From contig JACPRH010000005.1 in assembly GCA_016190055.1 (NCBI GenBank), positions 35,233 through 99,232 on the forward strand: DNA of 64,000 nt. Reading direction: 5' to 3'. Each line of letters starts with the position of its first letter. Position 1 is the stretch's first letter. The translations under genes were made by a program, and so were the position numbers. Source of the DNA: Nitrososphaerota archaeon (GTDB lineage: Archaea > Thermoproteota > Nitrososphaeria > Nitrososphaerales > JACPRH01). Below, in pieces: positions 21,685-39,231 of the stretch. The notes below the pieces were generated by a model. The model ran no database searches. It was not told the origin of the DNA and saw nothing but the letters and a program-made list of their open reading frames with translations.

Positions 21685-22875
21685 TTACTCTACGTGGACC
21701 CTGAATTGGTCGATGTCTTCGCCGACGACGCTGAGGAGTTCACGGCATGCGCGCTCCACATCCTTCGACTGGGTGATGTAGCGGCCAACTATCAGTATGT
21801 CCGCGCCTTTTTCGATAGCTTCCTTCGCGGTCTCAGCGTTAATGCCTCCTGCGACGGCGACGTAGAGCTTCTTGTCAGCCAGCTCAGTCTTGACCTTCTG
21901 GATGATCTGCCACCTTGTCTTTCCACCCTCCTCTTCATCGATGCCTCGGTGCAGGATCACGATGTCAGGAATATCCTTCAAACCCTTCAGTACAGCCAGC
22001 GGATCCGCGACATCCATCATATCTATAGCGGAGTAGATGCCGAGCCGCCTCGCCTCATAGACGAACTTCTCAAGGGTCGCCTTGGACGCTAAACCTGATG
22101 CGACTACTGCGTCAGCAGTCTCGTTAAAGGATATGTCAACCTCTACCTGACCAACATCCAGCGTCTTCAAGTCAGCTATGATGAAGACATCCTGGTTCGC
22201 CTCGCGGAGATCACGGATGACTTTGAGCCCATACTTCTTTATGAGCGGTGTACCGGCTTCAAGCAGAATACGGTCGCTCTTTGGAAGCTGAGATATCACC
22301 TTCTTAGCTGATTCGATATCAGGGTTGTCTAGCGCAATCTGTAGGTAAGGCCGCATCCATAGACGTGGAACTCTGAAGCCCATAATCGGGTGTTTCGCCC
22401 TATCCTTATCATACATTATCTTTTCGAGGCTCGGATAGTTCTGGAGCGCCCGTTTCAACGCTAGCTTCGTGGCGCCGTAATTGTAGTGATAGATTTTCCG
22501 GTAGTCGGTAGCATCAGGGTGAATGAAGACGCTGATAACTATGACAAGATTCTCAATCTGATCCTGCGGCACAACACCTTCTTCAACAGCATCAGCAACT
22601 GCCTTAGCGACAGCCGCCTGAGCTGGGCCGAATATCTTGGAGGCCTGCTCCATATCCTTGACAGTAACCTTAGGAGTAATCAGAGTGAAGGGTTTAGGCG
22701 GCAAGTTAGGCCGTATAACAGCTAGGAGAGGAGTATGTCCGGCGGAGAGCTGTGTAAAACCGTTCGCAAACGCCTGTCCAACAGGCCCCTCTTTGTCACC
22801 GATCATAAGATCGATGTGCGCGACCTCGTTACCCTCGCCTATGAGAGCTTCACCAATGAAGAACAAACTGATCAC
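21685..22875 (-). CDS. fae-hps: Bifunctional formaldehyde-activating enzyme / 3-hexulose-6-phosphate synthase (Fae-Hps)
   Basis: The N-terminal Fae block is GEALIGEGNEVAHIDLMIG...LLAVIRPNLPPKP...FGPAQAAVAKAVADAV. The C-terminal OMPDC-family HPS block is YLQIALD...LLEAGTPLIKKYG...IIADLKTLD...GADILIVGR. GTG start. Confidence 0.9.
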   Translation of the reverse strand: MISLFFIGEALIGEGNEVAHIDLMIGDKEGPVGQAFANGFTQLSAGHTPLLAVIRPNLPPKPFTLITPKVTVKDMEQASKIFGPAQAAVAKAVADAVEEGVVPQDQIENLVIVISVFIHPDATDYRKIYHYNYGATKLALKRALQNYPSLEKIMYDKDRAKHPIMGFRVPRLWMRPYLQIALDNPDIESAKKVISQLPKSDRILLEAGTPLIKKYGLKVIRDLREANQDVFIIADLKTLDVGQVEVDISFNETADAVVASGLASKATLEKFVYEARRLGIYSAIDMMDVADPLAVLKGLKDIPDIVILHRGIDEEEGGKTRWQIIQKVKTELADKKLYVAVAGGINAETAKEAIEKGADILIVGRYITQSKDVERACRELLSVVGEDIDQFRVHVE

Positions 22876-25819: not shown

Positions 25820-26704
25820 TTACTTAGGCATCGGATGACGCGAGAGTCGTTTACGTAGATTCATCAGCGCATCGATATTAGAGTGAATCGCCTTCCTGTG
25901 CTCGAAGAGGAGCTCACGTATAACCCAGCCCTCCTCAAGCAGCTCAAGAGAATCGTCAATTCGGTGAAGCGCAACCTTTAGCGCGACAATGCTCTTAGCC
26001 AAAGCTCGGTCGGTAATCCGCTGCTGCTTCTCTAGATCCGAGTAGGAGTATGGGATGCTGTCTGTAAAGGCGTCGAACTCAGGTAGATTTCCCCGATGAA
26101 TCATCTTAACCATGTCGCGGACGTCGCTTCGTGAGAGACTCTCGCCGACAGCCCTCATCCCGAGCTCAATCTGCTGGTTTTCATCGTCAAGTGAGAGAAG
26201 CTCCTCCCCAACACTCGGACTGATGTTTCGCCTCGCAATCTCAGCCCGAATCTCCTTCGGCAGTGAAAGGAGCCTCAAACGTTTGCTCACATAGACTTGG
26301 CTCTTACCTATCTGCCTCGCTAGCTCGCTTACCCCGCCCCAACCATAATCCTCCACATAACGTCTAAAGGCCTCAGCCTCCTCAACCGGGTTCAGCATGT
26401 TCCGCTGAACATTCTCGACCAGCGAGACCTCGAAAGCCTCCTTATCATCAAGCTCCACTATATGACAGGGAATCTTAATCCAGCCTAGCCTGCGACACGC
26501 CTCGAAACGCCTATTACCCGCAACAACCTCATAACCCTCCTCAACCGGGCGGACCACGATAGGCTGAAGAAGCCCAACCTTCGAGATTGACGCCATCAAC
26601 TCATCTAGGTCGCCGAGATCGCTTCTGAGACTCCGCTGAGCAGGATGAGTCTTCCGCATCTTCACCTCATCGAGAAAACCTGCGAGAGACGGGCCGTCCA
26701 TCAT
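25820..26704 (-). CDS. ParB/Spo0J-like protein (ParB N-terminal domain + HTH)
   Basis: GLLQPIVVRP...GYEVVAGNRRFEACRRLGW (GxRR box). HTH: ARQIGKSQVYVSKRLRLLSLP. The ~120 aa C-terminal region is of unknown type. Confidence 0.85.
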   Translation of the reverse strand: MMDGPSLAGFLDEVKMRKTHPAQRSLRSDLGDLDELMASISKVGLLQPIVVRPVEEGYEVVAGNRRFEACRRLGWIKIPCHIVELDDKEAFEVSLVENVQRNMLNPVEEAEAFRRYVEDYGWGGVSELARQIGKSQVYVSKRLRLLSLPKEIRAEIARRNISPSVGEELLSLDDENQQIELGMRAVGESLSRSDVRDMVKMIHRGNLPEFDAFTDSIPYSYSDLEKQQRITDRALAKSIVALKVALHRIDDSLELLEEGWVIRELLFEHRKAIHSNIDALMNLRKRLSRHPMPK

Positions 26705-28627: not shown

Positions 28628-29782
28628 TTAAGGCTGACTGGTGAAGAGCTTTGTGAAGTAACTCTTGTAAGTTGCGCTATTCTTGACCACGTCGTCGTTC
28701 GGGAAGATTTTTAGATCGTCTGGAGTCTTGCCCGGTAGCACCGTCTGGAGTGTGTATTTTGCAGTGATGTCTTGGCGGGCTGCTATCCTTACCTCGCTGT
28801 TCCCGACCATAGTCTGGCCGTCCTTAGAGAGTATCCAGTCCATGAAGAGTCTCGCGGCGACTGGGTGTGTAGCGTTAGTCACTACGCCCACGGGGAGTAG
28901 GCTTGTCAGCACAGGTAGCCCATCAATTGTGAAGGCGGCTACAGGGGCGCCTTTGTTCTTGGTTCCGAGAAAGTCATGCATATAGACTGATAGGGCGATG
29001 CTTTCTTCGCCGCTTGCAACTGGGTTGATTACATCTTCAAAGGCTGCTTTACGGATAGGCTGGACATTCGTGGCTAGTCGTTCCATGAAGGAGGTCCACT
29101 CTTGTTCACCCATGTATTGCTTTAAGGTGGCGAAGTACTGTGTTCCGACAGTTCCTAGTGTAAGATCGTGGATCGTGTCCTTGCCCTTCCACTTGGGATC
29201 AACAAGTTGATCTACAGTATGTGGAACATCTGAGTCCGGCACTAGAGCGGTGTTACGGACCTGAAGCATTGGGAGAAGCATTGCGGCGACCCAGTGACCT
29301 GTTGAATCTTTGAAGATCGCGGGGTAGGCTGCGGCCTCCGGCGAGTTGTACTGTTCTAGAAGACCCTTGTTTTGCAGGCTAAGCTGAAGAGAAAGACTAA
29401 TCATGACTACGTCAGCAGTCGGTTTGTTAGCTGCCCGCTCAGTCGTTATCTTTGTGAAGATGTTACCAGGCGTATCTGTAAAGAACTGGATACGGGTGCC
29501 CGGGTACTTTTCTTCGAAGACTTTCTGCCACGGAGCGAAGGTCTGTTGATCAACAGTCGTGTAGACAACAAGCGTGTCTTCGGGCTTAGGAGCAGATGTT
29601 GTTGAGGTGCTGGAGGTGGTAGTAGTTGATGTGCTACTGGTGGTGGTTGAGGAGGTGGGGGTGGTTGTGGATGGGTTTAGTGATATGTAGGCTGCGGCTG
29701 CGATGGCGACGATTACTACGATGGCTATTCCTATGTAGGCGTTGCGGTTAACCAATATATTTTCACTACTATGCGAAGACAA
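28628..29782 (-). CDS. ABC transporter substrate-binding protein (family-1 SBP, Fe3+/thiamine-like), membrane-anchored with Thr/Ser linker
   Basis: N-terminal TM (YIGIAIVVIVAIAAAAYISL), linker TTTPTSSTTTSSTSTTTTSSTSTTS, then an SBP fold (LVVYTTVDQ...). Heads the operon with the permease. Confidence 0.85.
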   Translation of the reverse strand: MSSHSSENILVNRNAYIGIAIVVIVAIAAAAYISLNPSTTTPTSSTTTSSTSTTTTSSTSTTSAPKPEDTLVVYTTVDQQTFAPWQKVFEEKYPGTRIQFFTDTPGNIFTKITTERAANKPTADVVMISLSLQLSLQNKGLLEQYNSPEAAAYPAIFKDSTGHWVAAMLLPMLQVRNTALVPDSDVPHTVDQLVDPKWKGKDTIHDLTLGTVGTQYFATLKQYMGEQEWTSFMERLATNVQPIRKAAFEDVINPVASGEESIALSVYMHDFLGTKNKGAPVAAFTIDGLPVLTSLLPVGVVTNATHPVAARLFMDWILSKDGQTMVGNSEVRIAARQDITAKYTLQTVLPGKTPDDLKIFPNDDVVKNSATYKSYFTKLFTSQP

Positions 29783-29863: not shown

Positions 29864-31039
29864 TTGGGTTTCATTTTATCCGATTTGAGACTATCGGTTC
29901 CTAGCCGGTTCGAAATGGAGCTGCTGGAGAAGTTTGGGCGCTTTAACAAGAAGTACGGCAGCATCGACAAGATATACGGTTCGCTGCCGAGCTCGATTAT
30001 TGGGCACGGCAGAATCGCAGGGCTAGTGAAGAAGTTCGGAGACTTTGACATGGATCATGTCAGAGAGTTCACGGAGGAAGCGCATAGAATCGGGATTAGA
30101 GTGAACTATCTCGCAAACACACTCTGCCTAGGAGAGGTAGGTTACACTAACGATGGGCGAGAGAAAATTCTCAGCTACCTTGGAGAAGTGTATGAGACGG
30201 GTGCAGACATCATAACCGTCGCCTCACCCTATATTCACCGGCTCGTCAAAACCGAGTATCCTAGCTTGAAGACAGAGATCTCGGTTTACGCTGAAATCGA
30301 CACCGCCCAGAAGTTCAAGAGATGGGAAGAGCTCGGCGCAGACATCATCAACCTGCCTTCGCGAGCCAACCGTGACTTTGAGCTCCTCGAAAGCATCGCT
30401 AAATCCCGCAAAACCGAAGTTGAACTCCTCGTAAACGAATCCTGCCTCTTCCACTGCCCATACTCACTTTACCACCACACAGTAAGCTCTCACCGATCCC
30501 GCATCCCCGACGACGGCGTAGACTACTGCATGCTGGAATGCGTGCAGGATCGGCTAGAAGACCCCTCTGAGCTACTCAAGGCAGCTTGGATCAGACCTGA
30601 AGACATCGCGTACTACGAGAAAACCTACGGTATCGACCGGTACAAGATCCAGGGAAGACAGATGCCGGTTCAATGGATTGAAAAGACAGTCGAAGCCTAC
30701 TCAACCAGAAAGTACAGCGGAAACCTGCTTGACCTAATCAGCCCAACCTACCCAGACTGGTCAGCCCGCTCAGCAGCCAACCAGCAGACTCTGCCAGGAT
30801 TCCAGCCTCAAGACCTAAAGAGACCAGACGTATACATCGACAATAGCCAGCTCGATAGGTTCTTCACAACTCTAGTTAAGAAAGGGGGATGCGCCCCGAC
30901 AAAACCATGCGACACCTGCAGATACTGCAACCAAGCATCGAAGAATCTGGTTCAAATCAGGAACCAGGAACAGTTCAAAACCTATGCGGCTGCGACAAAA
31001 GCGCTTTTTGAACACGCAATAACTGCATCCACTGCCTAG
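29864..31039 (+). CDS. Peptidase-U32-family protein (UbiU/UbiV/RlhA-like putative Fe-S hydroxylase family)
   Basis: TIM-barrel-like U32 pattern: FTEEAHRIGIRVNYLANT...ETGADIITVASPYIHRLVKTEYPSLKTEISVYAEID...LGADIINLPSRANRDFELL...EVELLVNESCLFHCPYS. Four-Cys group: ESC, FHC, DYCMLEC. The TTG start is uncertain, because a TATA-like ctatatata lies only ~10 nt upstream. Confidence 0.7.
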   Translation: MGFILSDLRLSVPSRFEMELLEKFGRFNKKYGSIDKIYGSLPSSIIGHGRIAGLVKKFGDFDMDHVREFTEEAHRIGIRVNYLANTLCLGEVGYTNDGREKILSYLGEVYETGADIITVASPYIHRLVKTEYPSLKTEISVYAEIDTAQKFKRWEELGADIINLPSRANRDFELLESIAKSRKTEVELLVNESCLFHCPYSLYHHTVSSHRSRIPDDGVDYCMLECVQDRLEDPSELLKAAWIRPEDIAYYEKTYGIDRYKIQGRQMPVQWIEKTVEAYSTRKYSGNLLDLISPTYPDWSARSAANQQTLPGFQPQDLKRPDVYIDNSQLDRFFTTLVKKGGCAPTKPCDTCRYCNQASKNLVQIRNQEQFKTYAAATKALFEHAITASTA

Positions 31040-31092
31040 TCAAGACAGGCACGTCGATCTGACCCAGGTAAATCCAGCAAAGTAATGCTTTA

Positions 31093-31515
31093 ATGGTCAT
31101 CGCTGCAGGCTCGGTGAAGCATAAATTGACTCAGTTCTGGTCTAAAGAATTCTTTGAGCAAGCTGGTGAGCGGCTTAATCGTGACGATGAACTCACCAAG
31201 GTTTTCGCCGGTATGAACACTACCATACTCGCAGTAAGTAGTGACAAAGATGAGGCGTTCCTGATCCAGGTGGAAAACGGGAAGATCAGTTCAAGAGAGG
31301 CGCGCCCAGAGGATAAGGCGGAGTTCAAGTTCACATCACTCTATGAAAAATGGGAGAAGATAGCTAAGGGAGAGATGAGAGTCCAAAGCGAAGTAGTCAA
31401 AGGCGGCATCAAGTTCACCGGCTCGATGCCTAAAATGCTGCTCTACCTCGGCAAAGTAGTCCGAATGGAGAAGAAAATTCTCAACATCATCAAATCGATG
31501 AACCTTGAGTACTAA
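31093..31515 (+). CDS. SCP2 (sterol carrier protein 2-like) lipid-binding domain protein
   Basis: 140 aa. SCP2 pattern: ...TILAVSSDKDEAFLIQVENGKI...AEFKFTSLYEKWEKIAKGEMRVQSEVVKGGIKFTGSMPKMLLYLGK. Confidence 0.75.
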   Translation: MVIAAGSVKHKLTQFWSKEFFEQAGERLNRDDELTKVFAGMNTTILAVSSDKDEAFLIQVENGKISSREARPEDKAEFKFTSLYEKWEKIAKGEMRVQSEVVKGGIKFTGSMPKMLLYLGKVVRMEKKILNIIKSMNLEY

Positions 31516-31649
31516 CTGCCTCTATTCACTACTATCATCACCATCAGAGGCATTGCTACTTACATCGCTTCCATAAAATTCCGCCTCAGAAACAGAACCC
31601 CATAACCAAGACAAAATCTTAATAGTATCAGAAAAGTGAAGTTAACCGT

Positions 31650-32585
31650 ATGACCAAGCTAGTCGTATATACATCATTCTCGTTTATCCTCGACACGTTC
31701 GACATATCGCTGAGAGCGAAATACGCAGATGAACACTTTCACCTGATCACCTTCCGCGACCACCCAAAGATGGTTTACGAACGAATTAAGAAGGAAACAG
31801 AGACTGGAGAACGTACCGCCGATCTCGTGATAGGCCCGCATTGGATGATCCTGAACCTCCAACTCCAAGGTCTCCTACGACACTATGACTCACCTGAATT
31901 CGCTGCATACCCGAAGGAGTTCCACAACCCGAAGGGAGCTTGGTGCGCAATGGCACTCTCACCCGTAGGCCTCGCCTACAACACCGACTTGGTCAAGGAA
32001 GATGAGGCGCCGACGACATTAGATGGAGCGCTTGACGAGAAGTGGCGCGGAAAACTAGCCGCCCACGAAATCACCGACAACGTGGAAGGACAGATGGGAC
32101 TCACATACCTGACCGCACTCAACCGCATCATAGGCGAAAAGAAGTGGAACGAAATAGTCGGAAGGCTAGCTGATCTTAAACCGAAGACCTATATGTGCAT
32201 GCCTGAGATGGCACTAAACATTGGGTTAGGTAACAGCTACCTCGGCCTCCCCGCGACCCTGGCCTGCATTTCATACTACCTAGATATCCAAGGCCGGCCA
32301 GTCGCTCACAGAATGCCCACAGACATCCCATACATGGCGACCTTCGCACCCACAATCGCCATCGTAAAGGGCGGCGAGAACGCGGATTGGGCTGAACGAG
32401 CATTCAACTTCGCGCTCTCAGAGGATTGGCAATCCCACGTCGAGGGATTGGGCGGAAAGATTCCGACTAGACCAGGCATGGCTTCTTTAAACCCCGTTCC
32501 GGAAGATGCGAAGTATTTCCCAACCCTTGAAGATGCGAGAAACATACCGAAGTACCTTGACATCTTGAGAAGCAAGATGGCGTAA
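31650..32585 (+). CDS. Leaderless (cytoplasmic) paralog of the ABC substrate-binding protein
   Basis: Collinear similarity to the SBP at 28628-29782. For example, YDSPEFAAYPKEFHNPKGAWCAMALSPVGLAYNTDLV...LDEKWRGK aligns with YNSPEAAAYPAIFKDSTGHWVAAMLLPMLQVRNTALV...VDPKWKGK. It starts directly with the first beta-strand (KLVVYTS) and has no TM/signal or Thr-rich linker. Confidence 0.7.
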   Translation: MTKLVVYTSFSFILDTFDISLRAKYADEHFHLITFRDHPKMVYERIKKETETGERTADLVIGPHWMILNLQLQGLLRHYDSPEFAAYPKEFHNPKGAWCAMALSPVGLAYNTDLVKEDEAPTTLDGALDEKWRGKLAAHEITDNVEGQMGLTYLTALNRIIGEKKWNEIVGRLADLKPKTYMCMPEMALNIGLGNSYLGLPATLACISYYLDIQGRPVAHRMPTDIPYMATFAPTIAIVKGGENADWAERAFNFALSEDWQSHVEGLGGKIPTRPGMASLNPVPEDAKYFPTLEDARNIPKYLDILRSKMA

Positions 32586-32695: not shown

Positions 32696-34132
32696 TTAGA
32701 CGGCGGTTACAGCGTCTTTGTATTCAACGGCTCGTTTGATGATTTCAGATTCCGTGAGGTCTTCACGCTCCAGTCCGAGCGGGTGCTCGATCTTTCCTTC
32801 GCCTAGATCGCGGCAGTAATCGTAATAGTCTTTGAAGCTGCTTCTCAGCCGCCGCATGTTGAACCGTTTCGGAAACAAGTCTATGGGTGAGCCGGGTGTT
32901 AGCCGGAGTGGGACGCATTCAAGCTGATCCTGCGGATTCTGGAACATCTGCGGGTACCGCTTCTTCATTTCAAGCGATAATTTGACAGTTTCTTGGAAGT
33001 CCTGTTCTGTTTCGAATGGGAGGCCACAGATGAACCAGAGAAAGAGCTGTGCACCGCGTGGAGAACCGACTTCCGAGATTTTCTCAACCGCCTTTGACAA
33101 CTGGTTGTTGGTGTAGAACTGCTTGTGGAAGCCTTGGCTGCAGAGCTTGTCTCTGAGCCTCTCGGAGCCGCTGTCAGGAGAGATTTGGATCTCGAAGCTC
33201 CTGAAGCTTTCGCCCACTTGGGAGATCAGCTCGTTTGATGGAAGGTTCCAAGGGAGGAAGGTGAGATCAACATCAAGCGGCTTAAGCTCAGCGAAGAGCT
33301 TCTGGAAGTAGGTTTCATCTTTGAAGGGCCCAAAGTCGAGGAAGAGGCTTTCAACCCCATTCTCACTAAGGAGGTTTGCGTCTCGGACAACATCCTCGAC
33401 GGGGCGAAATATTGAGACTCCGCGGCTGAAGATTCTGGTTGAGCCTGTTTTCGAGGTTCCGCAGAAGCAGCAGTTGTAGCTGCAGCCCTTACCCACATAT
33501 AGGTAGAACTCGCTTGATTTTGTGGATACCTTCTCAACTATTTTGCCGGACGATATCGGAGCGGAGGTGCGGACACGGGTCGTTTTGAGGTAATGATCCC
33601 ACTCATCAACCATCTCATTCATGTCTTTGTTGGCAGCGCTCAGGTTTTCAAGCGATGTCTGATGGTAGGTAATCGGCTTAGAAACAAACTCCCCGTCCTT
33701 CATGAACGAAGCATTCTCAGTACGCTCCGGATCAAGGGTGGAGACGTAGTCAAGAAGCGGCTTCTCACCATCACCTTTAACGATGAGGTCGATTGCCGAT
33801 GTGAAATCCAGTATCTGCTTGTTGAAGTAGGTGGATGTGTGGCCGCCGATTACCACCTTTGTCTCGGGGGACTCGGCTTTAACTGCCTCCGCGACCTTCA
33901 ACGCTTCATAACTGTGAATGTACCAGTGTAGACTGATGCAGGCGACCTTCGGATTAAACTGACGAATCTTCGTTCTCACCGTTTCTTCAGTGTTCTTATC
34001 CACAAGCACGGCGATTCGTGAATCATAGGCGTGTTTCCGGAGATAAGCGGACAGACTTAGCATGCCAAGGGAGATTATCCCGTACTGCTTGCCCACAGCA
34101 GGCTGGAAGAAGAGAACATCCACATCCGGCAT
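32696..34132 (-). CDS. B12-binding-domain radical SAM protein (class B rSAM)
   Basis: N-terminal cobalamin-binding Rossmann-like domain (VLFFQP...ISLGMLSLSAYLRKHAYDSRIAVLV...ACISLHW...VVIGGHTSTY). Radical SAM cluster motif CSYNCCFC (CxxxCxxC). Confidence 0.85.
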   Translation of the reverse strand: MPDVDVLFFQPAVGKQYGIISLGMLSLSAYLRKHAYDSRIAVLVDKNTEETVRTKIRQFNPKVACISLHWYIHSYEALKVAEAVKAESPETKVVIGGHTSTYFNKQILDFTSAIDLIVKGDGEKPLLDYVSTLDPERTENASFMKDGEFVSKPITYHQTSLENLSAANKDMNEMVDEWDHYLKTTRVRTSAPISSGKIVEKVSTKSSEFYLYVGKGCSYNCCFCGTSKTGSTRIFSRGVSIFRPVEDVVRDANLLSENGVESLFLDFGPFKDETYFQKLFAELKPLDVDLTFLPWNLPSNELISQVGESFRSFEIQISPDSGSERLRDKLCSQGFHKQFYTNNQLSKAVEKISEVGSPRGAQLFLWFICGLPFETEQDFQETVKLSLEMKKRYPQMFQNPQDQLECVPLRLTPGSPIDLFPKRFNMRRLRSSFKDYYDYCRDLGEGKIEHPLGLEREDLTESEIIKRAVEYKDAVTAV

Positions 34133-34240
34133 TTAGTATCTCACCACAAAAGACATTCTTCGGCTATTTTAGCACTCCGCCGCCGCAAAACCCTTTAATA
34201 ATTACGTTGGCTCTGACGAATTCACGGTACTGAATAATAG

Positions 34241-34489
34241 ATGTCGGCCTTACGAGATGCTTTCGCTGAGCTAGATGAGAAGCAGACGCTTCTAGCGATC
34301 CAGCAAATGATTGACCGTGGAGAAGATCCTAAGGAGATACTGGCTGAGGCGCGTCGAGGATTACAGATTGTCGGCGAACGGTTTGAAGCGAGGCAGTACG
34401 CGCTTATTGAGCTTGAGATGGCTGATGAGCTTTTCCGAGAATGCGTCAAAGCGGTGGAGGAGAAGACGGATCAGGGGAGGGTGGACTGA
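34241..34489 (+). CDS. Stand-alone corrinoid-protein 'cap' (B12-binding_2 helical bundle) mini-protein
   Basis: 82 aa. LRDAFAELDEKQTLLAIQQMIDRGEDPKEILAEARRGLQIVGERFEARQYALIELEMADELFRECVKAV matches the N-terminal cap of MtaC/MetH-type corrinoid domains. The ORF stops before any DxHxxG Rossmann module, and only 80 nt remain before the next gene. Confidence 0.6.
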   Translation: MSALRDAFAELDEKQTLLAIQQMIDRGEDPKEILAEARRGLQIVGERFEARQYALIELEMADELFRECVKAVEEKTDQGRVD

Positions 34490-34569
34490 ACCTGCGCCGA
34501 TTACCTAGAGAAAAGGAAAGTTGTTGTCAACAAATAACAATCGCCTAGAAGAGATGTGAGGAGCTAACA

Positions 34570-35679
34570 ATGCCTAAAAAAATTAACATGTCGAGGGAGA
34601 GACTTCGAAGAGCCGTCGAGTGCGAGACACCGGACCGTGTTCCAATCACGATTAGGCTTGAGTACGCTGCGGCGCGCTGGGCCGGGATCAGCTTCAAGGA
34701 TTTTGCGCTCGATCCTCTGAAGGCCTCTAACGCGATTGAGCAGACATACGAGAAGATGGGAGGATGGGACGCTGTGGACGCGTCTTGGACATTAGGCACC
34801 CGGTGGAGCAGGCTTGAGGCGGCTAAGGTTCAGTTCCCGGGAGTAGATTTCCCTGAGCAGCTTCCGCATAGAGTAGTTGACTATCCTGTGATGACGCCTG
34901 AGGACTACGGTTTAGCGGTTAAAGGAGGGTTGAATAGCCTAGCCACTGTTCTGCTAGACCGGCTCGGAAAGAAGATAGATAGGAGCACAAGCGAGGAGGT
35001 ATTCATATCGTTTACACCCATTTACAGACACTGGGATGAGGAGAAGGGTGTGCCGGTCTACAGGGGAGGTATGGTGAGGCTCCCGTTCGTACAGTTCTCG
35101 ATGTGGCGCACGTGGCGCGGAATGGCGCATGATCTTCTGAAGCAAGGTGACAAGGTGAAGGAGGCTTGCGATGCGGTTTTAGATGAAGCAATAACGATCG
35201 GGGAGAAGCACAGCCGCATCGTTGGCTGCAAATACATCTTCATGCCCTGTGGCCGCGCTTCAGCAACCTTCCTCTCAGAGAGACTCTTCCTAGAATACGT
35301 TTTCCCACATCTAAAGAAGATCACTGAAAAACTTGTTCAAGACGGGTTCACTCCTCGCCTACACTGCGACACAGACTGGGAGCCGTTTCTACAGTTCTTC
35401 CGTGAGCTGCCGAAAAAGAGCTGCATTCTCGAGCTGAGCCCAGCCACCAACATCAAGCGAGCCAAGGAGCTGCTTGGAGGCCACATGTGCCTGTACGGCA
35501 ATGTCCCGAGAAGCCTCCTTTCAGCAGGCTCCCCCGCTAGCGTAGAGACATACTGCAAGAAGCTAATTGATAATGTTGGGCGAGACGGATTCATCTTAGC
35601 AAATGATGATATTGTTCCATACAACGCTAGGTTCGAGAATGTTAAGATGCTCATAGACGCTGGGAAAAAATACGGGTAA
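34570..35679 (+). CDS. URO-D family protein, MtaA/CmuA-like methylcobamide methyltransferase homolog
   Basis: N-terminus RERLRRAVECETPDRVPI and C-terminus GGHMCLYGNVPRSLL...GFILANDDIVPYNARFENVKMLIDAGKKYG are typical of the family. PRLHCD is a possible Zn-ligand region. Confidence 0.8.
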   Translation: MPKKINMSRERLRRAVECETPDRVPITIRLEYAAARWAGISFKDFALDPLKASNAIEQTYEKMGGWDAVDASWTLGTRWSRLEAAKVQFPGVDFPEQLPHRVVDYPVMTPEDYGLAVKGGLNSLATVLLDRLGKKIDRSTSEEVFISFTPIYRHWDEEKGVPVYRGGMVRLPFVQFSMWRTWRGMAHDLLKQGDKVKEACDAVLDEAITIGEKHSRIVGCKYIFMPCGRASATFLSERLFLEYVFPHLKKITEKLVQDGFTPRLHCDTDWEPFLQFFRELPKKSCILELSPATNIKRAKELLGGHMCLYGNVPRSLLSAGSPASVETYCKKLIDNVGRDGFILANDDIVPYNARFENVKMLIDAGKKYG

Positions 35680-35745: not shown

Positions 35746-37605
35746 ATGACTCGACTTCTAGCGCCTTTGATAATTCTCCTAATCATATCATCCAGTATCA
35801 CGTTACTAATCGCGCCTCAAACAGCAGTAGGCCAGCAGCAGCAACAGCAACCACCGACCGCTGGCGACTGGGTTGCCACAGGTTACGATTACAAACACAC
35901 CGGGTTTAACCCTCAGACGGTGATTAACCGGGACAATGTGAAGGAGTTGGAGTTCAAATGGATTTACCAGCTCCCCTCGAACCCATACCGAAGTATTCTA
36001 CAACCGTCGCTTGGTCTTGAGACGAATCCGCTGGTCGTGAATGGAATGGTTTACTTCGCCGCATCCTACAGCAAGGTGTTTGCAGTCAACGCTTTGACTG
36101 GAAATCTAGTGTGGAGCCACGAGGTGAACGTAACCAAGGCACTTGAGAAGCCGTACATCGGTAACTTTGGAATACAACACGCGATTACATACAAGAGTGG
36201 CCTCATCTATCAGCTGGCAATAGACTGCACCCTTTACGGTCTCGACGCGGCGAACGGTCAAGTGAGGCTGCAGATCGATGACATCTGTAAAGATATACCG
36301 GGGAACAGAGGATTGTACTTCGGAGAAGAGGCGCCTACAATATATGAGAAGGACGGGCGAAGGATAGCTGTCGTACCTGTTGCAGCTGGACTCTTCTATG
36401 CACGAGGCTTCGTCGCAGCCTACGACCTCGAAACTAAGGAACTGCTGTGGCGATGGTTTGTTATTCCTCCTGGTGTAGAAGGGCCTAAGGATAACTGGGA
36501 AGGATACCAAGATGTAAGCAAAGGCAACATCAAGCCTTACCCCGGGGACTGGGGAGACAGCAGCGAAATCTGGGGAGGCTCAGCTTGGGTCTCAAGCTCC
36601 ATCGACGAGGACACCGGTCTCGTCTACACATCCACCGGTTACCCCGGCATCGGCTTGACACTTGCAGGTAATGGAGACGCCTCAAGGAGACCGGGGCCGA
36701 ACCTGTACACCAACTCGATAGTGGCGCTCGACGTGCTGACAGGCAAGATGAAGTGGTATTATCAGGTGACACCGCACGATTTAGTCCAGCACGGCTTCGG
36801 ATGGAACACGATACTCGCCAAAGTCACTATTGACGGTCAGGAGAAGAAGGTCATAGTCACCGGCAGCAAGAACGGGTACGTCTACGAGCTCGATGCGGTT
36901 ACAGGTGAGCCGGTCATACAGCCTGTGAAGGTAGGAGTTCACCTCAACGACTACAACACGAACCTAGGTAACGATGCAGACATGACGATGAACCAGCAAC
37001 CAGGAGTCACCTGCCCCGGAGGAAACGGCGGAATCGAAGCACCGGTAGCCGTCGCGCACAACACCATTTTTGCCGCAGCCCAGAACCGATGCTTTGATTG
37101 GCGACCGGTTCCGAACGCGTACAAAGGAACCGCAGTATGGGTCGCCGGCCCAGTGATGGATAGACCCCAAAACTCAACACTCTACGCCATCGACGCCACA
37201 TCAGGCAACATCAAGTGGCAGTTCAACATGCCTAACCCATACCAAGGAGCTGGCGTTATCGTCAGCGGAGGAGTCGTCTTTGCGCAGGACAGAATCGGAA
37301 CACTATACATGTTAGATGAGCAGAACGGGCAGCTTCTCAGGAGTATCTACTTCGGCGGGCTCGGCGCCGCAGGAGTATCCATCGGCCAGAATCCAAGAGG
37401 AGAAACAATGCTTTTCGTACCCTCCGGCGGAGGAGACATAATTGTACCCACGCCCGGCACACTCACAGCCTTCGCGTTACGTGAAGGATCCTCGTCCAGC
37501 GGAGGAGGAACATTCACAAACGAGGTGGTCTACATTGCGATAGCGGTTGCAATCGTAATGGGAGGAATCGCCTTGGTAAGCCTGAGAAGAAAATCAGTAA
37601 AGTAG
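35746..37605 (+). CDS. PQQ-like beta-propeller (quinoprotein dehydrogenase-like) exoprotein with N- and C-terminal membrane segments
   Basis: The N-terminal block GDWVATGYDYKHTGFNPQTVINRDNVKELEFKWIY resembles the quinoprotein dehydrogenase start (W..G.d....yspL.qIn..NV..L..aW). Repeated propeller blades follow (VNGMVYFAAS, GLIYQLAIDCTLYGLDAANG, GKMKWYY, GYVYELDAVTGE, LYAIDATSGNIKW, GTLYMLDEQNGQ). C-terminal TM plus RRKSVK tail. Confidence 0.7.
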   Translation: MTRLLAPLIILLIISSSITLLIAPQTAVGQQQQQQPPTAGDWVATGYDYKHTGFNPQTVINRDNVKELEFKWIYQLPSNPYRSILQPSLGLETNPLVVNGMVYFAASYSKVFAVNALTGNLVWSHEVNVTKALEKPYIGNFGIQHAITYKSGLIYQLAIDCTLYGLDAANGQVRLQIDDICKDIPGNRGLYFGEEAPTIYEKDGRRIAVVPVAAGLFYARGFVAAYDLETKELLWRWFVIPPGVEGPKDNWEGYQDVSKGNIKPYPGDWGDSSEIWGGSAWVSSSIDEDTGLVYTSTGYPGIGLTLAGNGDASRRPGPNLYTNSIVALDVLTGKMKWYYQVTPHDLVQHGFGWNTILAKVTIDGQEKKVIVTGSKNGYVYELDAVTGEPVIQPVKVGVHLNDYNTNLGNDADMTMNQQPGVTCPGGNGGIEAPVAVAHNTIFAAAQNRCFDWRPVPNAYKGTAVWVAGPVMDRPQNSTLYAIDATSGNIKWQFNMPNPYQGAGVIVSGGVVFAQDRIGTLYMLDEQNGQLLRSIYFGGLGAAGVSIGQNPRGETMLFVPSGGGDIIVPTPGTLTAFALREGSSSSGGGTFTNEVVYIAIAVAIVMGGIALVSLRRKSVK

Positions 37606-37623
37606 AGTAAAGTTTGTTGAGAA

Positions 37624-37639
37624 GCCGCTGAAAAGCGGC
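37624..37639. terminator. Short GC hairpin (GCCGCT-gaaa-AGCGGC) between convergent genes
   Basis: Read directly. Lies between the PQQ-like stop (37605) and the MFS stop (37708). Confidence 0.35.
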
Positions 37640-37707
37640 GAGGAGCAGGCGGCTGAGAACAGCAGTCGACCTGCAACCCTTTCTCTCACTCGGTTGTTCC
37701 TTTCTTT

Positions 37708-39231
37708 TTACGCAGGTTCGCTTTTAGCCTCTTCAGATATGCCGTCAAGAGGCTTTGTTGGTTTCACTATCAACGCGATCAGAAATGCTATGCCGGCGAT
37801 TGCGGCGGAGATGACGAGGGACTGGCTGATCCCTGCGATATACTGTTCTACAACTATTCGACCTCCGCTTAGGAAGAGGTTTGTCGGCAGGTAGAGTCCT
37901 ATTATGGACGCGCAGATTGCGTAGCTCAGAGTTTGGCCTGTGTACCTCATCATGCCGAGTACACCGTTCGCTAGGCTTCTCTGTCTGGGCGGTACTGACA
38001 TCAGGCACTCTGATGTGTTGACGGGTGAGAAGATACCTACACCGACGCCCAGTATTACCAGCGAAGCGAGTAGAAACTCGATTGAGGATTCGGCGGTTAT
38101 GCGGCTCATCAGGAGAAGAGAAAGCGCAGTTACACCTGCTGCAAGTATCCTAACTTCTCTTCGATCATACCGGTCTGAGAACCAGCCACTAATAGGTGAA
38201 ACAGCTGCAGCCACTAGAGGGAAGACAGCGAGTATGAGCCCTGTCTGGAACGGATCCATCAGTTTGACCAGACCAAGGTAGAAGGCGACTACAACGTAGA
38301 TGCTGTAGTGAGCTATGTAGATGAAGAGAGCCTCCAGATTGGTTGAGGCGAACTCCCGATTCTGAATGAATAACCGGAGATCCAGAACTGGAGACTTCAC
38401 CGTGAGCTGAGACACTAGGAAGAGAGTTAGGAATATTAGCCCAACCGCCAGCGTTTCAACCAGAGGTATCGAGATAGCGACGAATGTGTCAACGAAGATG
38501 TTGACGATTGGTATCCAGAAATTTGTGATTATGATGTCGAGGTTGGTCCAAGCCTGCTGCGGACCGAAGGTTATTGCAATAGAGATCATGATAAGTGATG
38601 CTGCCAGCAGTATAGAACCAATCCAATCCATTTTCTGCCCAGTAGCGACAGTGGTTTCACGGATAACAAAGTGCGAAACAACCAAGGTGACCACCGCTAT
38701 CGGGATAAGCATCCAGAAGAGAAAACGCCAGCCCAGATAGCTAGTGATGATGCCTCCAAGAGCAGGACCAAGAGTGTGACCGAGATAGACAACCAGCAGA
38801 TGCCATCCAAGAGCCTTACCGCGCTCGTTAGAGGGGAAAATATCGACTATGACAGAGCGCGTATTCACGATGAGAATAGCTGAGCCGATGCCGGTTAGGG
38901 AGCGGTAGAAGGGCATCTCGTAGATTGTTGAGGCGACCGCGGTTAGAAGAGAGCCGGCGATAAAGGCAACGATCCCGATGTTGAAGTAGCGTTTCCTGCC
39001 TTTAATGTCGGAGAGGAGCCCGAAGAGCGGCATGAACGCGGTCATCATAATGACCTTGGCTAGCGGAACCCAGATAGTTACGTTAACATCGGATCTAAAA
39101 TCACGAGCTATGTTAGGAAGTATCAGAGTCACAAGCCCAGTATCAAAGGATACGAGAAAGGCCGCTAGATTGATGACGATAAGAGCCATCCACTTGTACT
39201 CTAAGCCTCGACGTATCTGCAAGCCCTTCAA
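37708..39231 (-). CDS. MFS transporter, 14-TM DHA2/EmrB-like
   Basis: ~14 hydrophobic helices. MFS motif A-like GLLSDIKGRKRYF. The true start may be the internal ATG (MALIVINL...). Confidence 0.9.
   Translation of the reverse strand: MKGLQIRRGLEYKWMALIVINLAAFLVSFDTGLVTLILPNIARDFRSDVNVTIWVPLAKVIMMTAFMPLFGLLSDIKGRKRYFNIGIVAFIAGSLLTAVASTIYEMPFYRSLTGIGSAILIVNTRSVIVDIFPSNERGKALGWHLLVVYLGHTLGPALGGIITSYLGWRFLFWMLIPIAVVTLVVSHFVIRETTVATGQKMDWIGSILLAASLIMISIAITFGPQQAWTNLDIIITNFWIPIVNIFVDTFVAISIPLVETLAVGLIFLTLFLVSQLTVKSPVLDLRLFIQNREFASTNLEALFIYIAHYSIYVVVAFYLGLVKLMDPFQTGLILAVFPLVAAAVSPISGWFSDRYDRREVRILAAGVTALSLLLMSRITAESSIEFLLASLVILGVGVGIFSPVNTSECLMSVPPRQRSLANGVLGMMRYTGQTLSYAICASIIGLYLPTNLFLSGGRIVVEQYIAGISQSLVISAAIAGIAFLIALIVKPTKPLDGISEEAKSEPA

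What the first reader, a model, noticed from the sequence alone, without database searches (positions are those of the whole stretch)
32696..35679. B12-radical SAM gene divergently paired with an orphan corrinoid 'cap' domain and an MtaA-like methyltransferase, with no full corrinoid protein
Canonical corrinoid methyltransferase systems need a corrinoid protein made of a cap plus a Rossmann B12 domain with DxHxxG. Here only the 82-aa helical cap is encoded. It stops at 34489, and just 80 nt of non-coding DNA separate it from the URO-D/MtaA-like gene. The only cobalamin-binding Rossmann module nearby is the N-terminal domain of the divergently transcribed class-B radical SAM enzyme. Two readings are possible. 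The cap may be a decayed corrinoid protein. Alternatively it may be a trans-acting cap for the rSAM B12 domain or a partner of the MtaA-like protein, which would be a new arrangement.
Basis: partly seen in the sequence, partly recalled or inferred. Interest (0 to 1): 0.6.

Follow-up and report, generated by a model that had tools for sequence, protein, structure and literature searches.

The report
Conserved stand-alone B12 'cap' protein
A small archaeal gene encodes only the helical 'cap' half of a vitamin-B12 carrier protein; it is not a decaying fragment but a conserved, selected protein that always sits in front of a methyltransferase-like gene, so this enzyme system seems to work with a stripped-down partner.

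Summary
Window 32696-34132(-) encodes a B12-binding radical SAM enzyme, 34241-34489(+) an 82-aa B12-binding_2 cap with no Rossmann domain, and 34570-35679(+) a UroD-fold protein. No corrinoid-protein Rossmann module exists anywhere in the 64 kb.

The cap is not a decaying gene. Its dN/dS is 0.075, like its neighbours.

It descends from a truncated corrinoid-protein paralogue. The nearest outgroup loci carry a 'His-less' full-length corrinoid protein, then URO-D, then a canonical corrinoid protein. The cap fills the first slot and ends at the position of the DxHxxG loop, with a conserved tail TDxG(RVD).

'MtaA-like' holds only for the fold. By sequence the enzyme belongs with CdmB/MtoB-type substrate:corrinoid methyltransferases. 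MtaA's zinc ligands H-x-C...C are H-x-D...D here.

The radical SAM gene is a constant neighbour within this clade. One locus has a gene inserted between it and the cap, and neither outgroups nor distant homologues show the pairing.

Best reading (confidence about 0.5): the cap is a docking or accessory subunit of the methyltransferase. Where the corrinoid comes from is unresolved.

The parts
34241..34489 (+). Stand-alone corrinoid-protein cap (82 aa): a four-helix B12-binding_2 domain plus a short conserved C-terminal tail, with no Rossmann domain
   Evidence: Pfam PF02607 E 3.7e-7. AF2 gives a four-helix bundle, pLDDT 86.5, matching the caps of MetH, MtmC, MtaC and MttC. Stand-alone orthologues are 82-105 aa. 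dN/dS is 0.075 against L005.
34463..34489 (+). C-terminal tail KTDQGRVD. The core TDxG is conserved in all family members. It aligns with the DxHxxG loop of corrinoid proteins, with His replaced by Thr
   Evidence: Alignments. The spacer length (20-22 aa) matches the linker plus beta1 of His-less CPs. Tail codons vary synonymously between loci. The window copy has lost the 22-aa spacer but kept the tail in frame.
34570..35679 (+). UroD-fold methyltransferase-like protein (369 aa) of the CdmB/MtoB-type branch. H265/D267/D347 lie at the positions of MtaA's zinc ligands
   Evidence: Pfam URO-D E 8e-22. phmmer against CdmB 9rui E 4e-25. Family profile against CdmB E 7e-68 over full length, MtaA 9e-7. 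AF2 pLDDT 91. Foldseek best hit is MtaA 4ay7/4ay8. Motifs.
34490..34569 (+). 80-nt spacer between cap and URO-D. It holds no coding remnant. A GAGGAG Shine-Dalgarno-like motif lies at 34558-34563, 6 nt before the ATG
   Evidence: Sequence read directly. No Rossmann remnant by tblastn. Spacer lengths are 13-120 nt and not conserved in orthologous loci. No terminator-like site lies between the two genes.
32696..34132 (-). B12-binding radical SAM enzyme (478 aa), transcribed divergently from the cap. It belongs to a narrow family most similar to TIGR04190 (Ta0216 type)
   Evidence: Pfam. NCBIfam TIGR04190 E 1e-44, 153 bits against a cutoff of 500. CX3CX2C at 217-224 and no DxHxxG. Orthologues at 66-94% identity are found only in the same clade.
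34133..34240 (.). 108-bp divergent intergenic region shared by the rSAM and cap genes. An A/T-rich TATA-like element TTTAATAA lies about 40 nt upstream of the cap ATG
   Evidence: Sequence read directly. That it acts as a promoter is inference. No Rfam match and no cobalamin riboswitch.
31093..32585 (+). Conserved neighbours: an SCP2-like lipid-carrier-type protein (31093-31515) and a 311-aa SBP_bac_6-like protein whose sequence begins directly at the conserved domain, with no N-terminal hydrophobic segment as in the 384-aa paralogue (31650-32585)
   Evidence: Pfam. Present in the same order in L001, L002, L005, L007-L009, L013 and L028-L035.
29864..31039 (+). U32-family protein (391 aa). It is a frequent but not universal member of the neighbourhood
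   Evidence: Pfam PF01136 E 3.5e-12. Present in L001, L002, L005, L009 and L013. Absent between the SBP and SCP2 genes in L031-L033 and L035. Also found next to the outgroup modules L011, L013 and L023 and the distant rSAM locus L021.
35746..39231 (.). Downstream conserved neighbours: a PQQ-type beta-propeller dehydrogenase (35746-37605, +) and an MFS transporter (37708-39231, -)
   Evidence: Pfam. Same order in L001, L005, L009, L010, L030-L033 and L035.

Best explanation
The 82-aa protein is a conserved, expressed small protein that arose by truncating the upstream, 'His-less' corrinoid-protein paralogue of a three-gene module: His-less CP, UroD-type methyltransferase, canonical CP. It keeps the four-helix cap and the loop-equivalent tail. 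It is most likely co-transcribed with the UroD-type enzyme and acts as that enzyme's docking or accessory subunit. The cap is the part of corrinoid proteins that makes the main protein-protein contacts with their methyltransferases. It cannot carry cobalamin itself. The corrinoid, if the enzyme still uses one, must come from a Rossmann-containing protein encoded outside this window or be handled in another way.

The divergent B12-radical SAM gene belongs to a neighbourhood fixed in this lineage (SCP2, SBP-like, rSAM | cap, URO-D, PQQ dehydrogenase, MFS). It may act in the same pathway, but nothing shows that it is the cap's physical partner.

Shown: domain content, truncation history, purifying selection, synteny, family placement, absence of the Zn motif. 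Inferred: binding to URO-D, co-transcription, source of the corrinoid, the chemistry catalysed.
For: (2) The cap is always directly upstream of the URO-D orthologue on the same strand, 13-120 nt away. In L005 a Na+/H+ exchanger gene separates the rSAM from the cap but leaves cap-URO-D intact.
(3) Purifying selection: cap dN/dS is 0.075 (window against L005, dS 0.61), against 0.092 for URO-D and 0.054 for the rSAM. Tail codons vary synonymously.
(4) Origin: outgroup URO-D P0028 (54% identity) and the L023 module have a full-length His-less CP in the cap's slot and a canonical CP downstream. The cap's closest full-length relatives are these His-less CPs (48% and 42% identity). A paralogous pair of His-less CP and URO-D (46-47% identity) lies next to, or in the same genome as, the cap pair.
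(5) More distant URO-D relatives (34% identity) pair with canonical CPs, so the enzyme family is corrinoid-linked.
(6) The family profile matches the MT I enzyme CdmB at E 7e-68.
(7) Published complexes show the cap domain providing the primary stabilising and specificity contacts with the methyltransferase (MttB-MttC and MtaB-MtaC, PMC9842639). For CdmB-CdmC an AlphaFold 3 model shows both CdmC domains anchored on CdmB (PMC13222342).
(8) The most invariant stretch, F48 and Y53-A61, is the helix 3-4 junction. From my own knowledge of MetH, this segment faces the corrin, so the fold and its functional surface are maintained.
Against: No binding or expression data exist, and multimer modelling was not available. 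No Rossmann corrinoid protein lies within 64 kb. In L009 the only canonical CP near the cluster is a frameshifted remnant, so the corrinoid source is unexplained. The conserved corrin-facing motif and the conserved loop-like tail would fit a cap that still covers a cobalamin in trans just as well as a pure docking role. All cap loci probably descend from one truncation event, so the constant synteny amounts to a single evolutionary observation. The cap-only state and rSAM adjacency appear in the same clade, which a pure 'URO-D subunit' model does not explain.
Confidence: 0.5

Rival explanations
1. Split, MetH-like system with the radical SAM enzyme. The rSAM's N-terminal Rossmann domain is the cobalamin carrier. 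The URO-D barrel loads or unloads its methyl group. The stand-alone cap shields the cobalamin's upper face in trans during the exchange. In this reading the rSAM's B12 domain has functionally replaced the lost Rossmann half of the corrinoid protein.
For: The rSAM carries the only cobalamin-binding module in the 64 kb. rSAM and cap share a 108-bp divergent intergenic region. The order rSAM(-)/cap/URO-D holds in all loci that extend far enough except L005. The cap-only state and rSAM adjacency arose in the same clade. The corrin-facing motif and the DxHxxG-loop-like tail are the most conserved parts of the cap.
Against: In L005 another gene sits between the rSAM and the cap. Outgroup modules with full CPs (L022, L023, L011) have no rSAM. 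More distant rSAM homologues (36-41% identity) lie in loci without URO-D or cap. In solved class-B rSAM enzymes, from my own knowledge of OxsB, TsrM, Mmp10 and TokK, the cobalamin's upper face points into the rSAM barrel and is not exposed for capping or docking. The rSAM's B12 domain shows no special similarity to CP Rossmann domains (25% identity, E 0.03 in a tiny database). The co-occurrence can be explained by shared descent in a narrow clade.
Confidence: 0.12
2. The cap is a regulatory or competitive decoy. By occupying the CP-docking site on URO-D-type enzymes, either its own neighbour or the paralogue that still has a CP partner, it would control access of a full corrinoid protein encoded elsewhere. 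Alternatively it chaperones cobalamin hand-over.
For: Genome GCA_053537315.1 carries both the cap-URO-D pair (L009) and a paralogous pair of His-less CP and URO-D (L011), and L013 has them back to back. The cap keeps CP-like surface motifs. The ancestral module already contained two different CP-type proteins around one enzyme, which implies that the upstream one had a non-carrier role.
Against: No direct evidence. Strict one-to-one adjacency with its own URO-D gene fits a stoichiometric subunit more simply. It is unknown whether the window's genome has the paralogous pair.
Confidence: 0.15
3. The URO-D enzyme of this clade has become corrinoid-independent, for example a decarboxylase or a metal-dependent transferase using the H265/D267/D347 site. 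The cap then survives only as a structural partner needed for folding or stability.
For: No CP lies in the window. The canonical CP is decayed in L009 and absent from the other cap loci. MtaA's zinc cysteines are replaced by Asp, and His is retained.
Against: The same H-x-D...NDD pattern is present in the outgroup P0028, which is flanked by two intact CPs, so the site change does not track CP loss. The strongest conservation in the cap lies in the corrin-facing segment. The hemE model score is negligible (20.7 bits against 303).
Confidence: 0.15
4. The 82-aa ORF is a non-functional remnant of a corrinoid protein, that is, a pseudogene fragment.
For: It lacks the Rossmann half. The window copy has also lost 22 aa relative to its orthologues.
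Against: dN/dS is 0.075, with synonymous sites at or near saturation in most comparisons. The reading frame is intact in about 16 loci (the chimeric contig L027 breaks off inside the gene) across roughly 50% protein divergence. The 22-aa deletion is in frame and preserves the conserved tail. Tail codons vary synonymously.
Confidence: 0.03

Closest known systems
Corrinoid proteins of methyltransferase systems (MtaC, MtmC/MtbC/MttC, MtoC, CdmC; TIGR02370)
   Same: Homologous N-terminal four-helix cap (Pfam PF02607; fold matches 3ezx, 2i2x_B and 7xcn). It carries the conserved G-x-x-F...Y-x-L-x-E-L motif. The gene lies immediately upstream of a cognate UroD-type enzyme.
   Different: The Rossmann B12-binding domain is entirely missing. 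The protein ends at the position of the DxHxxG loop with TDxG(RVD), where Thr replaces the cobalt-ligating His, so it cannot hold cobalamin as those proteins do.
CdmB / MtoB / MtvB-type MT I enzymes of the UroD superfamily (substrate:corrinoid methyltransferases; CdmB PDB 9rui, PMC13222342)
   Same: Closest solved relative by sequence: family profile E 7e-68 over the full length. No cysteine-based zinc site. Relatives at 34-54% identity are encoded next to corrinoid proteins.
   Different: About 50-60 residues shorter (369 aa against 413-457 aa). It lacks the insertions between the first strands that build CdmB's dimer and hydrophobic channels (gaps in A2). It retains His and Asp residues at the MtaA metal positions. 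No canonical CP, MT II or activating enzyme is nearby.
MtaA (methylcobamide:CoM methyltransferase, MT II; PDB 4ay7)
   Same: Best structural match for the compact UroD TIM barrel (TM 0.73-0.80).
   Different: 18% identity. The scores lie far below the NCBIfam cutoffs (22.6 bits against 400 for the MtaA equivalog NF040654; 44 against 244 for the broader subfamily NF004889). The zinc ligands H-x-C...C are H-x-D...D. The host is a Nitrososphaerales archaeon, and the window contains no methanogenesis genes.
Cap domain of cobalamin-dependent methionine synthase MetH
   Same: Same fold (9cbo, 8ssd; rmsd 1.5-1.7 A). In MetH the cap is a mobile module that covers the cobalamin between reactions with different barrels.
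   Different: In MetH the cap is covalently linked to the Rossmann domain. Here it is a separate polypeptide.
Class B (cobalamin-dependent) radical SAM enzymes, TIGR04190/Ta0216-like
   Same: The neighbouring 478-aa protein has the N-terminal B12-binding domain and a CX3CX2C radical SAM core.
   Different: It scores below the TIGR04190 cutoff (153 bits against 500). It forms a narrow clade-specific family of unknown substrate. I know of no class B rSAM that uses a separate cap protein.

Membership tests
Methyltransferase-cognate corrinoid protein (MtaC/MtbC/MttC type) | N-terminal four-helix cap (B12-binding_2) | tested here: met
   Pfam E 3.7e-7. AF2 and Foldseek match to cap domains. Family profile hits the cap of 4jgi.
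Methyltransferase-cognate corrinoid protein (MtaC/MtbC/MttC type) | Rossmann-fold B12-binding domain (PF02310) | tested here: not met
   The protein ends at residue 82. The 80-nt spacer holds no remnant. tblastn finds no Rossmann match in the window.
Methyltransferase-cognate corrinoid protein (MtaC/MtbC/MttC type) | DxHxxG cobalt-ligand motif | tested here: not met
   The tail KTDQGRVD aligns with the loop but has Thr in place of His. Its closest full-length relatives also lack the His.
Methyltransferase-cognate corrinoid protein (MtaC/MtbC/MttC type) | Encoded next to its methyltransferase | tested here: met
   Directly upstream of URO-D in every locus that extends far enough.
MtaA / MT II methylcobamide:CoM methyltransferase | UroD-type TIM-barrel fold | tested here: met
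   Foldseek best hits are 4ay8 and 4ay7, TM 0.73-0.80.
MtaA / MT II methylcobamide:CoM methyltransferase | Zinc ligands H-x-C ... C | tested here: not met
   They align with H265-C266-D267 ... D347. The Cys adjacent to the His is not at the ligand position and is not conserved in P0028 or the paralogues.
MtaA / MT II methylcobamide:CoM methyltransferase | Score above curated family cutoffs | tested here: not met
   NF004889 44 bits against 244. TIGR01463 34 against 235. NF040654 22.6 against 400.
UroD-superfamily MT I (CdmB/MtoB/MtvB/OdmB) | Full-length sequence relationship to a characterised member | tested here: met
   phmmer E 4e-25. Family profile E 7e-68, positions 3-373 against residues 18-429 of CdmB.
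UroD-superfamily MT I (CdmB/MtoB/MtvB/OdmB) | Insertions between the first beta-strands that form the dimer and substrate channels | tested here: not met
   369 aa against 413-457 aa. The window clade has gaps where P0060, P0067, P0077 and P0094 carry insertions.
UroD-superfamily MT I (CdmB/MtoB/MtvB/OdmB) | Works with a cognate corrinoid protein, an MT II and an activating enzyme | tested here: inconclusive
   None is encoded in the window. Outgroup relatives are flanked by CPs. The rest of the genome could not be searched.
UroD-superfamily MT I (CdmB/MtoB/MtvB/OdmB) | Methyl transfer from substrate to Co(I) | not testable with these tools
   Needs an enzyme assay.
Class B cobalamin-dependent radical SAM | N-terminal B12-binding domain plus CX3CX2C radical SAM core | tested here: met
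   Pfam. C217/C221/C224.
Class B cobalamin-dependent radical SAM | Membership of TIGR04190 (Ta0216 equivalog) | tested here: not met
   153 bits against a cutoff of 500.
Uroporphyrinogen decarboxylase HemE | Score above the TIGR01464 cutoff | tested here: not met
   20.7 bits against 303.

The most novel reading that the evidence does not exclude
The three genes form a split, MetH-like machine. The B12 domain of the radical SAM enzyme is the cobalamin carrier. The UroD-type barrel exchanges methyl groups with it, for example recharging methylcobalamin from a methylated substrate instead of a second SAM. The free-standing cap, with its DxHxxG-loop-like tail, protects or positions the cofactor in trans. 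This would be a link between corrinoid methyltransferase systems and class B radical SAM chemistry that, to my knowledge, has not been described.
Probability: 0.1. Interest if true: 0.85.

Novelty: new variant of a known kind. Interest (0 to 1): 0.5.

Why it matters
Corrinoid methyltransferase systems are thought to need a two-domain carrier protein made of a cap and a Rossmann domain. This locus shows a lineage of non-ammonia-oxidiser-like Nitrososphaerales in which one carrier paralogue has been cut down to the cap alone. That fragment has then been kept under selection for a long time next to its enzyme. The cap domain therefore has a function of its own, separable from carrying cobalamin: docking, regulation or trans-capping.

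The locus also exposes an undescribed ancestral module with two different carrier-type proteins around one UroD-type enzyme, one lacking the cobalt-ligating histidine. It offers a small, tractable pair of proteins (82 aa and 369 aa) for testing what the cap does. If the radical SAM neighbour proves to be the cobalamin partner, it would connect two large B12 enzyme classes in a new way.

Tried and rejected
(1) Pseudogene or decay reading: rejected by dN/dS and by the intact frames across the cap loci.
(2) Hidden Rossmann remnant in the 80-nt spacer or elsewhere in the window: none found by tblastn or Pfam.
(3) Read-through or frameshift fusion of the cap to URO-D: the cap frame meets another stop 15 codons after the TGA and the two genes are in different frames. 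Stop codons differ among loci (TGA, TAA, TAG).
(4) MtaA-type zinc site: absent.
(5) Rosetta-stone fusion of the cap to another domain: P0231 (418 aa, cap at 329-402) is a frameshift-like chimera with a permease fragment. Short distant hits such as P0119 and P0122 are contig-end fragments of ordinary CPs.
(6) rSAM as a widespread lipid enzyme (Grs, Gmm or Cgm orthologue): not supported. The family is narrow and scores below the TIGR04190 cutoff. The literature gives only general context.
(7) Cobalamin riboswitch or other RNA element: no Rfam hit in the window.
(8) Special relationship between the rSAM B12 domain and CP Rossmann domains (domain capture): none.
(9) L027, where the cap seems to lack URO-D: the contig is a chimeric assembly.
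(10) Literature search for stand-alone cap proteins or for this system in Nitrososphaerota: nothing found.
(11) Multimer modelling of cap+URO-D or cap+rSAM was not attempted.

Full report
OBSERVATION. The three genes are as described. Pfam assigns B12-binding plus Radical_SAM to the 478-aa product of 32696-34132(-). It assigns only B12-binding_2 to the 82-aa product of 34241-34489(+), at E 3.7e-7 and above the gathering score. It assigns URO-D to the 369-aa product of 34570-35679(+). The cap's ATG follows an in-frame TAG, and 80 nt separate its stop from the next gene. The radical SAM protein has C217-x3-C221-x2-C224 and no DxHxxG. Pfam scans of the remaining sizeable ORFs of the 64-kb window found no further cobalamin-binding Rossmann module. 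tblastn with canonical and non-canonical corrinoid proteins also found no remnant of one. An AF2 model of the cap is a four-helix bundle (pLDDT 86.5). Its best structural matches are the cap domains of MetH, MtmC, MtaC and MttC (TMq 0.72-0.83, rmsd 1.5-1.8 A). The Foldseek E-values are weak for so small a domain.

THE CAP IS A CONSERVED GENE, NOT A WRECK. A word-indexed search found nine clusters, all stand-alone proteins of 82-105 aa, plus one of 143 aa (P0008) whose extra length is an N-terminal extension and whose cap starts at an internal Met matching the other proteins' Met1. These clusters come from Nitrososphaerales and Thaumarchaeota MAGs and metagenomes. An exhaustive profile search found only about five 50%-identity clusters covering the whole profile. 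The next relatives are ordinary corrinoid proteins of 210-225 aa, or contig-end fragments of them. Genome and metagenome scans added 12 loci. Within the family, F48 and the block Y53-A61 (YALIELEMA) are invariant. A C-terminal tail, KTD(Q/M)GRVD or (T/I)DLG, is conserved, while the 20-22 residues before it are hypervariable. The window copy, with P0001, L026 and L027, has lost exactly those 22 residues in frame but keeps the tail. Nei-Gojobori estimates give dN/dS of 0.075 for the cap (window against L005, dS 0.61). The values are 0.092 for URO-D and 0.054 for the radical SAM gene, and synonymous sites are at or near saturation in most other pairs. The tail codons differ synonymously between loci. 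This is protein-level purifying selection.

SYNTENY. Every locus that extends far enough has the order SCP2-like, 311-aa SBP-like, rSAM(-), cap(+), URO-D(+), PQQ-type dehydrogenase, MFS(-). An ABC transporter and usually a U32-family gene lie upstream. Three variations are informative. In L005 a Na+/H+ exchanger gene lies between the rSAM and the cap, while cap-URO-D stays intact. In L031-L033 and L035 the U32 gene is absent. L027, where URO-D seems missing, is a chimeric contig whose junction falls inside cap codon 77. The cap to URO-D distance is 13-120 nt and the spacer is not conserved. In the window a GAGGAG motif precedes the URO-D ATG, and no terminator-like site lies between the two genes.

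WHERE THE CAP CAME FROM. The nearest outgroup URO-D is P0028 (54% identity; L022, GCA_053537355.1). It is preceded, with overlapping stop and start, by a 218-aa corrinoid-protein homologue in which DxHxxG reads AARLKDYGRE. It is followed by a canonical 211-aa corrinoid protein (GDVHDLGKN). L023 (GCA_053537335.1) has the same trio around another URO-D, plus a second CP-like/URO-D pair, a PEP_mutase-family gene and a U32 gene. Genome GCA_053537315.1 has both the cap cluster (L009) and, on another contig, a 226-aa His-less CP next to a URO-D paralogue of 46% identity (L011). In L013 the two pairs lie back to back. The window cap is most similar to these His-less CPs: P0118 at 48% and the upstream CP of L022 at 42%. 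It is less similar to the canonical ones, at 35-39%. In an L-INS-i alignment the tail TDQGR falls on KDYGR, EDFSR and HDLGK, the DxHxxG loop. The spacer length (20-22 aa) equals the linker plus beta1 of the His-less CPs. So the 103-105-aa proteins correspond to a CP cut just after that loop. L009 also carries, between U32 and SCP2, a frameshifted and N- and C-terminally truncated canonical CP that still reads GTVEGDIHDLGKN. It is 50% identical to the downstream CP of L022. No other cap locus has any Rossmann remnant. The most economical history starts from an ancestral module of His-less CP, MT and canonical CP. In one Nitrososphaerales clade the first was truncated to the cap and kept, and the last was lost from the locus.

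WHAT THE ENZYME IS. By phmmer the only solved relative is CdmB (E 4e-25). CdmB is the chloromethane:corrinoid methyltransferase (MT I) of Acetobacterium. It is a metal-free UroD-superfamily enzyme related to the O-demethylases MtoB, MtvB, OdmB and VdmB (PMC13222342). A profile of the window protein's family matches CdmB over its whole length at E 7e-68. It matches MtaA only partially, at 9e-7. The AF2 model (pLDDT 91) is structurally closest to MtaA (4ay7/4ay8, TM 0.73-0.80), then to HemE. CdmB was released after that library's cut-off, so it could not compete. The protein is about 50-60 residues shorter than the CdmB-like proteins and lacks their insertions. The His is conserved out to the 34%-identity tier. 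That tier has C-E-C where this clade has D-D-I. NCBIfam scores for the MtaA/CmuA models and for hemE are far below their cutoffs. Relatives at 34% identity sit next to canonical corrinoid proteins and HpaB-like genes. The family is therefore corrinoid-linked and MT I-like by sequence, with a compact MtaA-like barrel and a His/Asp/Asp site of unknown role.

THE RADICAL SAM NEIGHBOUR. Its best family match is TIGR04190 (Ta0216 type), at 153 bits against a cutoff of 500. Homologues at 36-41% identity lie in loci with ThiS-like, HGD-D, TPP-enzyme, other rSAM and, once, U32 genes, but without URO-D or the cap. Its B12 domain has no special similarity to CP Rossmann domains. Archaeal B12-rSAM enzymes often modify lipids (10.1101/2025.10.20.683597), and an SCP2-like gene is a constant neighbour. 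No specific assignment is possible.

MECHANISM. Published complexes show that the cap moves off the cobalamin when a CP binds its methyltransferase. The cap then supplies the main stabilising and specificity contacts with the enzyme (MttB-MttC and MtaB-MtaC, PMC9842639). An AlphaFold 3 model of CdmB-CdmC likewise shows both CdmC domains anchored on CdmB (PMC13222342). A cap without a Rossmann domain can keep that docking function but cannot carry cobalamin. The ancestral module already had two CP-type proteins, which suggests the upstream, His-less one had an accessory rather than a carrier role. I therefore consider it most likely (about 0.5) that the 82-aa protein is an accessory or docking subunit of the URO-D-type enzyme. 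Rivals follow. The cap may work in trans with the rSAM's B12 domain in a split, MetH-like system (about 0.1). This is favoured by co-occurrence and by the conserved corrin-facing motif and loop-like tail. It is disfavoured by the L005 insertion, by the independence of the two gene families outside the clade, and by the buried cofactor in known class B rSAM structures (my own knowledge). The cap may instead be a regulator or decoy for CP docking (about 0.15). The enzyme may have become corrinoid-independent with the cap as a structural partner (about 0.15). The pseudogene reading gets about 0.03. What the tail contacts, and where the corrinoid comes from, remain unexplained.

COMPARISON AND NOVELTY. 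Each part belongs to a known kind: CP cap, UroD-superfamily methyltransferase, class B rSAM. Three things are new. One is a stand-alone cap maintained by selection as a separate gene product. The second is its derivation from a His-less CP in a two-CP module. The third is its fixed juxtaposition with a B12-rSAM. Literature searches found no description of such a protein or of this system in Nitrososphaerota. I rate it a new variant of a known kind, with interest about 0.5. It is a clear evolutionary result and a testable small system, but its mechanism is unproven and its taxonomic range is narrow.

Noticed in passing
L009:5909-6450 (GCA_053537315.1, between the U32 and SCP2 genes): A decayed canonical corrinoid-protein gene. 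The cap part lacks its N-terminus, a frameshift falls near position 6095, and the Rossmann part still reads GTVEGDIHDLGKN but is truncated at the C-terminus. It is 50% identical to the downstream canonical CP of L022. No equivalent exists in the window, where only 53 nt separate U32 and SCP2.
   Followed up: yes
L022:5062-5718; L023:6001-6645 (P0118); L011:9317-9997; L013:9330-10001: A subfamily of full-length corrinoid-protein homologues has all three B12 motifs altered. DxHxxG becomes xRL(K/E)D(Y/F)(G/S)R or NREDISH. SxL becomes CG(L/I). GG becomes G(P/A)G. Two of them carry an extra SCGCQ insertion. They are always directly upstream of a URO-D gene, and whether they bind cobalamin is unknown.
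   Followed up: partly
window 35362-35376 (residues 265-269) and 35602-35610 (residues 345-347): His265, Asp267 and Asp347 (LHCDTDW ... ANDDIVP) occupy the positions of MtaA's zinc ligands His, Cys and Cys. Relatives at 34% identity have H-F-D ... G-C-E-C instead. This may be a different metal site or an acid/base site.
   Followed up: partly
window 29864-31515: A U32-family protein is followed by an SCP2-like protein, a pairing reminiscent of UbiU/UbiV with UbiT in O2-independent hydroxylation (my own knowledge). U32 genes also lie next to the outgroup CP/URO-D modules (L011, L013, L023) and the distant rSAM locus L021. However, U32 is missing from cap loci L031-L033 and L035.
   Followed up: partly
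window 31650-32585: A 311-aa SBP_bac_6-like protein (weak similarity to ferric-iron and 2-aminoethylphosphonate binding proteins) starts directly at the conserved fold, with no N-terminal hydrophobic or Ser/Thr-rich segment. It is a paralogue of the exported 384-aa SBP at 28628-29782, so it is probably cytoplasmic. It is strictly conserved next to the rSAM gene.
   Followed up: partly
L027:395-2442: This metagenome contig is 99% identical to the window through cap codon 77, then switches abruptly to high-GC, bacterial-looking DNA. It is almost certainly a chimeric assembly, not a real variant lacking URO-D.
   Followed up: yes
L023:5162-5935 and L022/L023 upstream genes: The outgroup modules sit beside a PEP_mutase-family gene and an NMT1/phosphonate-binding-type ABC transporter. 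The window's SBPs give their best NCBIfam hits to 2-aminoethylphosphonate binding proteins. This is a faint hint at phosphonate or another small polar substrate, and it was not pursued.
   Followed up: no
window 25820-26704 (-): A ParB_N/HTH_ParB protein is encoded between the ATPase and permease genes of the ABC transporter. The same odd placement is conserved in L002, L009 and L013.
   Followed up: no
window 21685-22875 (-): A fused formaldehyde-activating enzyme (Fae) and OMPdecase/HUMPS-like (hexulose-phosphate synthase-type) protein of 396 aa.
   Followed up: no
window 35746-37605 (+): A PQQ-type beta-propeller dehydrogenase homologue with hydrophobic segments at both ends. It scores almost as well against the NCBIfam 'acido-empty-quinoprotein' (non-PQQ) model as against the methanol/ethanol family, and below both cutoffs. 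Further PQQ-type genes flank the outgroup modules (L011, L022, L023).
   Followed up: no
window 1-64000: No Rfam family reaches its gathering score anywhere in the 64 kb (no tRNA, rRNA or riboswitch). Gene content (archaeal-type AdoMet synthetase, NucS, RadA, thermosome, GatB/GatA-type amidotransferase subunits, KaiC-like ATPases) and the nearest homologues indicate a Nitrososphaerales archaeon with about 50% GC. No ammonia-oxidation genes are in this window.
   Followed up: partly
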